In this document: in pieces, positions 52,094-52,263 of the stretch
How positions within the stretch are numbered: position 1 is the stretch's first letter
How the letters are laid out: the number at the start of each line of letters is the position of its first letter
Assembly (NCBI GenBank): GCA_038087875.1
Contig: CM075987.1
Coordinates: 25,298,001 to 25,362,000 of the forward strand
Reading direction: 5' to 3'
Length of the DNA stretch: 64,000 nucleotides
Source: Malacoraja senta
Lineage: Eukaryota
The notes under the pieces: model-generated
What the model was told of the DNA's origin: nothing
Databases searched by the model: none
The model's input: only the letters and a program-made list of their open reading frames with translations
Position numbers and translations under genes: made by a program

Positions 52094-52186
52094 GGGATGC
52101 AAGCAGAAGCCCCCACGTGGCGCATCCCAAGCAATGCTGACGACAGAAACTGTACCACAGTGACTGACTGAAGTCGCCAATTCTGC
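52094..52186 (+). ncRNA. HDV-like ribozyme motif with extended P4, P1.1 degenerate
   Basis: P1 GGGAUGC/GCAUCCC; P2 GCAGAA/UUCUGC; P3 GCC/GGC; L3 CCCACGU; CGAC..GUCG in P4; J4/2 CCAA. Confidence 0.75.
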
Positions 52187-52263
52187 AACCACCGACCGTC
52201 AACCGTCACTGACCGACCGGAAAGACGTGATATAGAAGATGGCTGGACACGATGAAGAAGAAG
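52094..52263 (+). mobile_element. Ribozyme-headed short retroposon (type D) with (GAA)n tail
   Basis: TSD-like agt(t/a)taggtt at 52083-52092 and 52262-52271; ends ggacacgatgaagaagaag. Confidence 0.75.

What the first reader, a model, noticed from the sequence alone, without database searches (positions are those of the whole stretch)
52094..52263. Type D ribozyme element with extended P4
Seen: P1 GGGAUGC/GCAUCCC, P2 GCAGAA/UUCUGC, P3 GCC/GGC, L3 CCCACGU, and a ~45-nt P4 region with CGAC/GUCG and CUGU/ACAG stems, then CCAA. AA replaces the expected GG of P1.1, so it is likely inactive. It shares ttctgc(t/a)accacc after the ribozyme and ggacac..gaagaag at the 3' end with type B (1396-1581), suggesting related parent LINEs.
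Basis: partly seen in the sequence, partly recalled or inferred. Interest (0 to 1): 0.7.

Follow-up and report, generated by a model that had tools for sequence, protein, structure and literature searches.

The report
Ribozyme-headed short retrotransposon, decayed copy
This 170-base stretch is a mutated copy of a young jumping element with several hundred copies, whose first 93 bases fold like the hepatitis-delta self-cutting RNA, a known way for such elements to trim their own RNA start; the kind is ordinary, but the ribozyme resembles the mammalian CPEB3 one.

Summary
Window 52094-52186 meets a strict HDV-like ribozyme descriptor with no mismatch: P1 7 bp, P2 6 bp, P3 3 bp, a 7-nt L3 and CNAA before P2'. 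The same descriptor found nothing in shuffled controls.

The whole 170-nt stretch is one copy of a family with at least 396 genome candidates. Twenty-seven distinct copies differ from the majority base by about 1.1%. Homology starts at ribozyme base G1 and ends in (GAA)n, and 29 of 30 copies have target-site duplications next to G1.

Most copies have UCC in L3 and GG after P1, so P1.1 is intact. The window copy carries C19 and AA and is probably catalytically dead. Its CGAC/GUCG stem exists only in this copy.

The element is a non-autonomous retroelement with a ribozyme head and no Pol III promoter. Five similar elements (types A, B and C) lie in the same window.

An RTE parent is not supported. 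The only (GAA)n-tailed LINE I found has ORF1 plus an EN-RT-RNase H ORF2, and its 5' end has no ribozyme. Its 5'UTR weakly resembles D's body. No direct parent was found.

This is a new member of a known kind. The closest Rfam family is the mammalian CPEB3 ribozyme, below threshold. That similarity is the most interesting lead.

The parts
52083..52092 (.). 5' copy of the target-site duplication (AGTTTAGGTT); one extra A (52093) lies between it and G1
   Evidence: 10 nt, 1 mismatch to the 3' copy
52094..52186 (+). HDV-like ribozyme head, 93 nt; the predicted cleavage site is immediately 5' of G52094
52094..52100 (+). P1 5' strand GGGATGC (G1 pairs with C35 rather than forming a G-U wobble)
52103..52108 (+). 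P2 5' strand GCAGAA
52109..52121 (+). P3 hairpin: GCC, L3 CCCACGT (majority TCCACGT), GGC
52122..52128 (+). P1 3' strand GCATCCC
52129..52130 (+). P1.1 partner positions: AA here, GG in 21 of 30 copies, so P1.1 is lost in this copy
52131..52176 (+). extended, interrupted P4 (46 nt); the window copy has A82C, which creates the copy-specific GUCG
52177..52180 (+). J4/2 CCAA holding the presumed catalytic C (counterpart of HDV C75, recalled)
   Evidence: every type parsed has C-N-A-A, which the descriptor requires
52181..52186 (+). P2 3' strand TTCTGC
52187..52243 (+). post-ribozyme body (AACCACC...GAAGATGGC), weakly similar to the 5'UTR and ORF1 start of the (GAA)n-tailed LINE
   Evidence: score 35 against at most 29 in 1274 background tiles; similarity to type B
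52244..52263 (+). 3' tail TGGACACGATGAAGAAGAAG, ending in (GAA)n
52262..52271 (.). 3' copy of the target-site duplication (AGTATAGGTT); it overlaps the last two tail bases

Best explanation
The stretch is one dead-on-site copy of a young, non-autonomous non-LTR retroelement of about 170 nt. In Kojima's terms it is a 'bipartite non-autonomous LINE'; it also resembles the R2 SIDEs. Its head is an HDV-like self-cleaving ribozyme and its end is a (GAA)n tail. Proposed cycle: (1) A source copy has no promoter of its own and is transcribed as part of a longer host or neighbouring transcript (inferred). (2) The ribozyme folds and cuts just 5' of G1, which gives the element RNA its exact 5' end (inferred from the fold and from the genomic ends; not shown biochemically). 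(3) The tail is used in trans by a (GAA)n-tailed LINE for target-primed reverse transcription, leaving duplications of about 10-13 bp (the duplications are shown; the identity of the LINE is inferred). The window copy has since lost P1.1 (GG to AA) and the first U of L3 (T19C), so it should no longer cleave.
For: Fold: the strict descriptor matches with 0 mismatches, and shuffles give 0 hits. The unconstrained minimum-energy fold of a majority copy gives P1, P3 and P4. Rfam's nearest families are CPEB3 and HDV-F-prausnitzii, at 23-26 and 24.8 bits on four intact copies.

Family: 396 candidates, of which 40 were scored at 95-100% identity over the full length. There are 243 exact 18-mer heads, 187 exact 21-mers near the 3' end and 123 exact 35-mer cores. 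Twenty-seven distinct copies differ from the majority by 1.11% on average.

Ends: in 30 aligned loci homology begins at G1 and ends in (GAA)n. Duplications occur in 29 of 30 copies and are at least 10 nt in 26. The 5' copy ends at G1 in 18 copies and within -1 to +3 in the other 11.

Covariation between families: P1 is GGGATGC/GCATCCC, GGGGTGG/CCACCCT, GGGGCGG/CCGCCCT or GGCCCC/GGGGCT. P2 is GCAGAA/TTCTGC, ATTGCA/TGCAAT or GAAAGG/TCTTTC. P3 is GCC/GGC, ACC/GGT or GCG/CGC. RNAalifold finds compensatory changes in 5 of 8 pairs. A model built from D copies only, run with filters off, ranks the six ribozyme-headed elements of the window first. D itself scores by construction; the other five have E from 5e-4 to 0.23, and the next hit has E 1.1.

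No Pol III head: no tRNA and no A or B box.

Partner: a (GAA)n-tailed LINE has many open 1277-aa ORF2s and makes 12-14-nt duplications. D's body aligns to that LINE's 5'UTR.
Against: No cleavage assay exists and there is no RNA evidence. No Rfam family reaches its gathering score. P4 is not more stable than shuffles. D pairs G1 with C35, whereas types A, B and C, and HDV and CPEB3 as I recall them, have a G-U wobble there; the effect on activity is unknown. The candidate partner LINE has no ribozyme at its own 5' end. Its tail shares little with D's beyond (GAA)n and GCCGGA. The similarity to the LINE 5'UTR is short and partly low-complexity (GACC repeats). A precise 5' end would also result from a fixed transcription start. 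The descriptor demands pairing, so the covariation table is partly circular.
Confidence: 0.85

Rival explanations
1. It is an RTE-derived element: head and tail come from an RTE-clade LINE, which also mobilises it.
For: As I recall it, Ruminski et al. 2011 reported HDV-like ribozymes at RTE 5' ends; that paper is not held. Kojima 2018 lists RTE among the clades that carry ribozymes and that produce bipartite non-autonomous LINEs (PMC5786205, passages). My sample of LINEs was only 20 of 150 scored endonuclease hits out of 32,291 candidates, so an RTE with a (GAA)n tail could have been missed.
Against: None of the 12 sampled loci outside the (GAA)n family showed (GAA)3 or more within 900 nt of the ORF end. 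The only (GAA)n-tailed LINE has ORF1 and RNase H. Rex3 tails are (GAA)2(GATG)n. D's body resembles the 5'UTR of the RNase H-bearing LINE.
Confidence: 0.1
2. The HDV-like fold does not cleave. It serves as a structured 5' end (for stability, protein binding or an IRES-like role), and the fixed 5' end comes from a transcription start.
For: No cleavage data exist. D has G1-C35 instead of the wobble. R2 ribozymes also bind R2 protein and are proposed to act as IRES-like elements (PMC6765202, passages).
Against: All core features needed for catalysis are kept in the majority: the L3 U and G, the P1.1 C-G pairs and the C of J4/2. Several families with different helix sequences keep the fold. No Pol III promoter motifs are present.
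Confidence: 0.07
3. It is a chance look-alike, or a single-copy regulatory ribozyme of a host gene.
For: Scores are below the Rfam thresholds.
Against: There are hundreds of copies with duplications. Shuffles give 0 descriptor hits.
Confidence: 0.01

Closest known systems
HDV-like ribozymes at the 5' ends of non-LTR retrotransposons (R2, RTE, Baggins/LOA, L1Tc/Ingi)
   Same: A nested double-pseudoknot fold sits at the very first base of the element. The proposed role is to cut the element RNA out of a co-transcript. Upstream flanks differ while downstream sequence is conserved (PMC6765202 and PMC5786205, passages).
   Different: Here the carrier is a 170-nt element with no ORF, in a vertebrate. 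No autonomous LINE carrying this ribozyme was found in the assembly.
Bipartite non-autonomous LINEs, R2 SIDEs and NARTc
   Same: A short element built from a LINE-type 5' end (with ribozyme) and a LINE-type 3' end, mobilised in trans (PMC5786205, passages; PMC3414825 and PMC3383444, search listing and start of abstract only).
   Different: The parent was not identified. The only candidate LINE shares a weak 5'UTR similarity and the (GAA)n tail but lacks the ribozyme. The described cases are from insects, trypanosomes and RTE families.
Mammalian CPEB3 ribozyme (Rfam RF00622)
   Same: It is the best Rfam match for types B (32.1 bits), C (27.7) and D (21.6-26). The P2 strands GCAGAA/UUCUGC are identical, L3 matches at 6 of 7 positions (7 of 7 in type A), and both have C-N-A-A-UUCUGC.
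   Different: All scores are below the gathering score of 35. These elements are multi-copy and mobile, not a single conserved intronic site. P1 differs. D has a 46-nt P4.
Hammerhead-bearing SINE-like elements and retrozymes
   Same: Non-autonomous retroelements that carry a small self-cleaving ribozyme (PMC6765202, passages; PMC4918200, listing only).
   Different: They use a different ribozyme class. They occur as tandem or circular-RNA forms; D copies are dispersed single units with duplications.

Membership tests
HDV-like self-cleaving ribozymes | P1 (6-7 bp) starting at the cleavage-site G, nested with P3, and crossed by P2 (double pseudoknot) | tested here: met
   P1 7/7, P3 3/3 and P2 6/6 pairs; 0 hits in shuffles
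HDV-like self-cleaving ribozymes | P1.1: two C-G pairs between L3 and the bases after P1 | tested here: not met
   The window copy has AA. The family majority has UCC and GG, so the feature is met in 21 of 30 copies and in 123 exact cores.
HDV-like self-cleaving ribozymes | Catalytic C in J4/2 just before P2' | tested here: met
   CCAA at 52177-52180. Types A and B have C-N-A-A as well (required by the descriptor).
HDV-like self-cleaving ribozymes | Self-cleavage 5' of G1 | not testable with these tools
   Indirect evidence only: duplications abut G1 in 29 of 30 copies.
HDV-like self-cleaving ribozymes | Reaches a curated Rfam gathering score | tested here: not met
   best scores are 21.6-26 bits (CPEB3, gathering score 35) and 24.8 bits (HDV-F-prausnitzii, gathering score 44)
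CPEB3 ribozyme family | Single conserved copy in a CPEB3 intron; Rfam score of at least 35 | tested here: not met
   Hundreds of dispersed copies; scores below threshold. Gene context was not examined.
Bipartite non-autonomous LINE / SIDE | No ORF, flanking target-site duplications, LINE-type 3' tail | tested here: met
   170 nt; duplications in 29 of 30 copies; (GAA)n tail as in the LINE family
Bipartite non-autonomous LINE / SIDE | 5' and 3' parts traceable to an identified parent LINE | tested here: inconclusive
   The body aligns weakly to the LINE 5'UTR. No LINE has D's head or exact body, and none has D's tail preceded by a purine.
Classical SINE (Pol III) | tRNA-, 7SL- or 5S-derived head with an internal Pol III promoter | tested here: not met
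   ARAGORN finds 0 genes; no A or B box match. 7SL and 5S heads were not tested separately, apart from the Rfam scan.
RTE-clade derived element | 3' end homologous to an RTE LINE (single ORF with endonuclease and RT, no RNase H; recalled) | tested here: inconclusive
   No RTE reference set was available. The only (GAA)n LINE found has ORF1 and RNase H. The Rex3 tail differs.

The most novel reading that the evidence does not exclude
The B, C and D ribozyme heads are sequence-level relatives of the mammalian CPEB3 ribozyme: same P2, near-identical L3, same J4/2-P2' run. On this reading the CPEB3 intronic ribozyme is a domesticated head of an old vertebrate retroelement lineage that is still mobile in this genome. 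Domestication of intronic HDV ribozymes has been suggested only in general terms (PMC7761336, passages). My searches found no named source family.
Probability: 0.25. Interest if true: 0.7.

Novelty: new member of a known kind. Interest (0 to 1): 0.42.

Why it matters
The element shows a vertebrate genome in which short, recently active retroelements use a hepatitis-delta-type ribozyme as their head instead of a Pol III promoter. Six such elements of four types lie in 64 kb.

These families offer many natural sequence variants of the fold for testing. They include a form with almost no P4 (type A) and a form with a 46-nt P4 (type D).

The resemblance to the CPEB3 ribozyme gives a concrete, testable candidate for the origin of that mammalian ribozyme.

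For annotation, the practical point is that these repeats should be labelled as ribozyme-headed non-autonomous LINE derivatives, not as unknown repeats or functional single-copy ribozymes.

Tried and rejected
Rfam at gathering thresholds: nothing.

RNA evidence: no RNA holder is listed. The four runs laid are contigs whose RNA label is a guess. They show only that pieces of the element, with the same ends (1500/1501 and 1667-1671 of L011), occur in runs under four organism codes. They say nothing about starts or expression.

Parent LINE hunt by exact patterns:
- D's body followed by something other than D's tail gave 6 and 6 hits, all D-like.
- D's tail preceded by a purine gave 0 hits.
- The 5' end of the (GAA)n LINE has no HDV-like motif by Rfam or by my descriptor.
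- Searching 251 nt around the L064 junction returned another repeat, not LINE heads.

MAFFT puts D's P1 out of register with types A, B and C, so RNAalifold gave only a partial P1. The D-only model misaligns P2' of type A, and with default filters it misses type A in L009. I therefore ran no formal pseudoknot pair count, and the helix table comes from my own descriptor.

Earlier findings of this scan: nothing on this genome or sequence.

Ruminski et al. 2011 is not held. My recollection that Rex3 ends in (GAA)n was wrong: the reported tail is (GAA)2(GATG)n.

Type B's and type A's bodies show no significant match to the LINE 5' end.

Full report
**1. What is at the site**

- Counting from G52094: P1 GGGAUGC/GCAUCCC, J1/2 AA, P2 GCAGAA/UUCUGC, P3 GCC/GGC, L3 CCCACGU, then AA.
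- A 46-nt P4 region follows, then CCAA, then the 3' strand of P2 ending at 52186. The ribozyme is 93 nt long.
- I wrote a strict descriptor of the HDV-like fold. It requires all pairs of P1, P2 and P3, the L3 motif YYCNCGY, and C-N-A-A directly before P2'.
- The descriptor hits this site with no mismatch. It gave no hit in five shuffles of all 361,777 bases I held, both strands.
- Rfam at gathering thresholds reports nothing in the window.
- With E-values, the best family is the mammalian CPEB3 ribozyme (21.6 bits, E 0.0026 in a 501-nt search, gathering score 35). HDV-F-prausnitzii comes next.

**2. It is one copy of a young repeat**

Copy number and age:
- The 170-nt stretch finds 396 candidates in its own 1.94-Gb assembly. 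Forty were scored, and the 39 other than the window copy itself match at 95-97% over the full length.
- Exact-word counts give 243 copies of the first 18 nt and 187 copies of a 21-mer near the 3' end.
- There are 123 copies of the 35-mer core that spans P2, P3, L3, P1' and the GG.
- The head is thus at least as frequent as the 3' part, so most copies appear to be full length. The two words differ in length and CpG content, so this comparison is rough.
- I aligned the 30 best loci with 70-nt flanks. Three pairs share flanks (L007/L012, L020/L021, L026/L027), which leaves 27 distinct insertions.
- These 27 differ from the majority base at 1.78 of 160 positions on average (1.11%, range 0-6). Nineteen of the 48 differences are CpG transitions.

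Ends:
- Homology begins at G1 and ends in (GAA)n. Twenty-seven of 30 copies start GGGATGC; three have one changed base among the first three.
- Target-site duplications were found in 29 of 30 copies, and 26 of them are at least 10 nt long.
- The 5' copy of the duplication ends exactly at G1 in 18 copies and within -1 to +3 in the other 11.
- The window copy has AGTTTAGGTT / AGTATAGGTT.

**3.

- L3 is TCCACGT in 27 of 30 copies. The two bases after P1 are GG in 21 of 30, AG in 5, and AA, GA, CA and GT once each.
- The family therefore has the two C-G pairs of P1.1, and the window copy has lost them.
- The window copy differs from the majority at six positions: T19C, G36A, G37A, A82C, C151T and G160T.
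- As I recall the HDV structure, T19C removes the L3 U that pairs with G24, the counterpart of the U20-G25 pair. This copy is hit twice in the catalytic core.
In majority copies the base of P4 is UGCU/AGUA, followed by CAG/CUG and ACUGU/ACAGU.
- P4 alone is no more stable than shuffles (z about -1). That is not a concern, because type A has almost no P4.

**4. Other ribozyme-headed elements nearby**

The window holds five more ribozyme-headed, (GAA)n-tailed elements.
- Type A (three copies): 33553-33702(-), 40556-40695(+) and 44672-44813(+).
- Type B: 1396-1581(-).
- Type C: head at 27311-27374(-). Its body is split by a repeat of about 600 nt.
- The relaxed descriptor parses types A and B. 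It also finds a further type in L061 and L036, with one hit in five shuffles.

The helices differ between types while pairing is kept.
- P1: GGGATGC/GCATCCC, GGGGTGG/CCACCCT, GGGGCGG/CCGCCCT, GGCCCC/GGGGCT.
- P2: GCAGAA/TTCTGC, ATTGCA/TGCAAT, GAAAGG/TCTTTC.
- P3: GCC/GGC, ACC/GGT, GCG/CGC.
- The descriptor selects for pairing, so this table is partly circular.

Two more independent checks agree.
- RNAalifold on a MAFFT alignment of the 5' domains finds compensatory changes in 5 of 8 pairs, although D's P1 is out of register there.
- I built a covariance model from D copies only and scored every position of the window. It ranks the six elements first.
- D scores 119 bits by construction. C scores 26.0 (E 5e-4), A 22.8, B 22.7, A 15.6 and A 14.2 (E 0.23). 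The next hit has E 1.1.

**5. What kind of element it is**

- There is no ORF, no tRNA-like head and no A or B box.
- The head is a ribozyme, the tail is a LINE-type microsatellite, and duplications flank it.
- This matches the 'bipartite non-autonomous LINEs' of Kojima (PMC5786205, passages). That paper notes that such elements keep the LINE 5' end, possibly because of a 5' ribozyme. [quoted passage not shown]
- It also matches the R2 SIDEs and NARTc (PMC3414825 and PMC3383444, listing and start of abstract).
- A review states that hundreds of intergenic HDV-like copies with conserved downstream and varying upstream sequence were already seen. [quoted passage not shown]
- The kind is therefore known. 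My searches found no report of it for cartilaginous fishes or with these sequences.

**6. The partner LINE**

How the candidate was found:
- A Pfam endonuclease search scored 150 of 32,291 candidates in the genome. I fetched 20 loci with long open frames.
- Six have (GAA)3 or more within 900 nt after the ORF. Two more belong to the same family by BLAST.
- None of the other 12 shows such a tail.

What the family looks like:
- It is 5.1-5.2 kb long.
- ORF1 is 399 aa and has CCHC-like motifs seen by eye, with no Pfam hit. ORF2 is 1277 aa with endonuclease, RT and RNase H (RNase_H E 1.9e-13).
- Five of six copies make 12-14-nt duplications.
- By recalled knowledge this architecture belongs to the I/Ingi/LOA-type group, not to RTE.

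Its 5' end carries no ribozyme:
- The longest 5' end starts AGAGTTGGCC in two copies with different flanks (L064, L066).
- It has no HDV-like motif by Rfam or by my descriptor.
- Of the 28 genome matches to its first 120 nt, starts cluster at positions 1, 31, 58 and 64.

How it relates to D:
- D positions 94-150 align to the LINE 5'UTR up to the ATGGC of ORF1 with a score of 35.
- The best of 1274 background window tiles scores 29. The two other tiles that reach 35 contain D itself.
- The aligned region is partly a GACC-type low-complexity run, so I treat this as moderate support for kinship with this LINE group.
- No LINE with D's exact body or tail exists in the assembly. The direct parent is either gone or diverged.
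- B and D are related to each other along their whole length.

**7. Mechanism**

- Shown: the fold, the family, the exact ends, the duplications, the decay of the window copy, and a co-resident (GAA)n LINE with many open ORFs.
- Inferred: co-transcription from outside promoters, self-cleavage at G1, and use of the LINE's machinery through the tail.
- D pairs G1 with C35, where the other types have G-U. I do not know what this costs in cleavage rate.

**8. The CPEB3 resemblance**

- Types B, C and D hit the CPEB3 model at 32.1, 27.7 and 21.6-26 bits.
- They share GCAGAAGC, (U/C)CACGU and AAUUCUGC with it.
- Type A shares L3 exactly but has a different P2 and no P4. It does not hit the model at E up to 10. 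The fold alone is therefore not enough for a hit, although the missing P4 also costs score.
- A review suggests in general terms that intronic HDV ribozymes of amniotes were domesticated from mobile elements (PMC7761336, passages).
- In the passages I read, the CPEB3 paper does not discuss such an origin (PMC10919898).
- I found no named source family.
- Common descent is possible but unproven. I put it at about one in four.

**9. Verdict**

The RTE attribution is not supported. The element is a new member of a known kind and is of moderate interest, mainly for the CPEB3 lead and for the density and variety of such elements in this genome.

Noticed in passing
window 33553-33702(-), 40556-40695(+), 44672-44813(+): Three copies of a type A element, 84-90% alike. 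Each has a minimal HDV-like fold with a 5-nt linker in place of P4, L3 TTCACGT (the same as the CPEB3 consensus shown by Rfam), a G1-U wobble, a (GAA)n tail, and duplications next to G1.
   Followed up: partly
window 1396-1581(-): Type B element. It is the best CPEB3-model hit in the window (32.1 bits, gathering score 35, E 1.2e-4). This copy has a C-A mismatch in P3 at a CpG.
   Followed up: partly
window 26400-27376(-): The type C head (27311-27374) is separated from its tail by a repeat of about 600 nt, flanked by the duplication CATGTTGGACG. That repeat has at least 8061 candidates in the genome.
   Followed up: partly
L048, L055, L058 (LINE loci): In three copies of the (GAA)n LINE, 27-45 nt of unrelated sequence lie between the 5' duplication copy and the LINE body. 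This may reflect template switching at the 5' end. It contrasts with the exact 5' ends of D.
   Followed up: no
L061:2419-2469(+), L036:1242-1362(+): A further HDV-like motif type (P1 GGGGTC, P2 GAAAGG/TCTTTC, L3 TTCACGT) found by the relaxed descriptor.
   Followed up: no
L064:2250-2384: A 135-nt repeat with at least 1417 genome candidates, the scored ones at 99-100% identity. This is a very young, abundant family of unknown kind.
   Followed up: no
window 29342-31830(+), 18184-19404(+), 54331-54906(-), 61442-62350(-): Other retroelement ORF remnants: endonuclease plus RT, RT alone twice, and a weak GIY-YIG hit that may be a Penelope-like element. None has a (GAA)n tail nearby.
   Followed up: no
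L007/L012, L020/L021, L026/L027: Three pairs of D loci share both flanks and the duplication, on different contigs or 8 kb apart. They are segmental duplications or assembly redundancy.
   Followed up: no
runs X1, X2, X4, X6 laid on L011:1401-1770: Contigs from public runs under four different organism codes hold pieces of the D element at 90-99+% identity with the same ends. The family is not confined to one sample.
   Followed up: partly
window 15406-15528(-), 5463-5603(+), 17586-17696: Sub-threshold Rfam microRNA-family hits (for example MIR839 at 59 bits, gathering score 200) that probably reflect hairpin-forming repeats.
   Followed up: no
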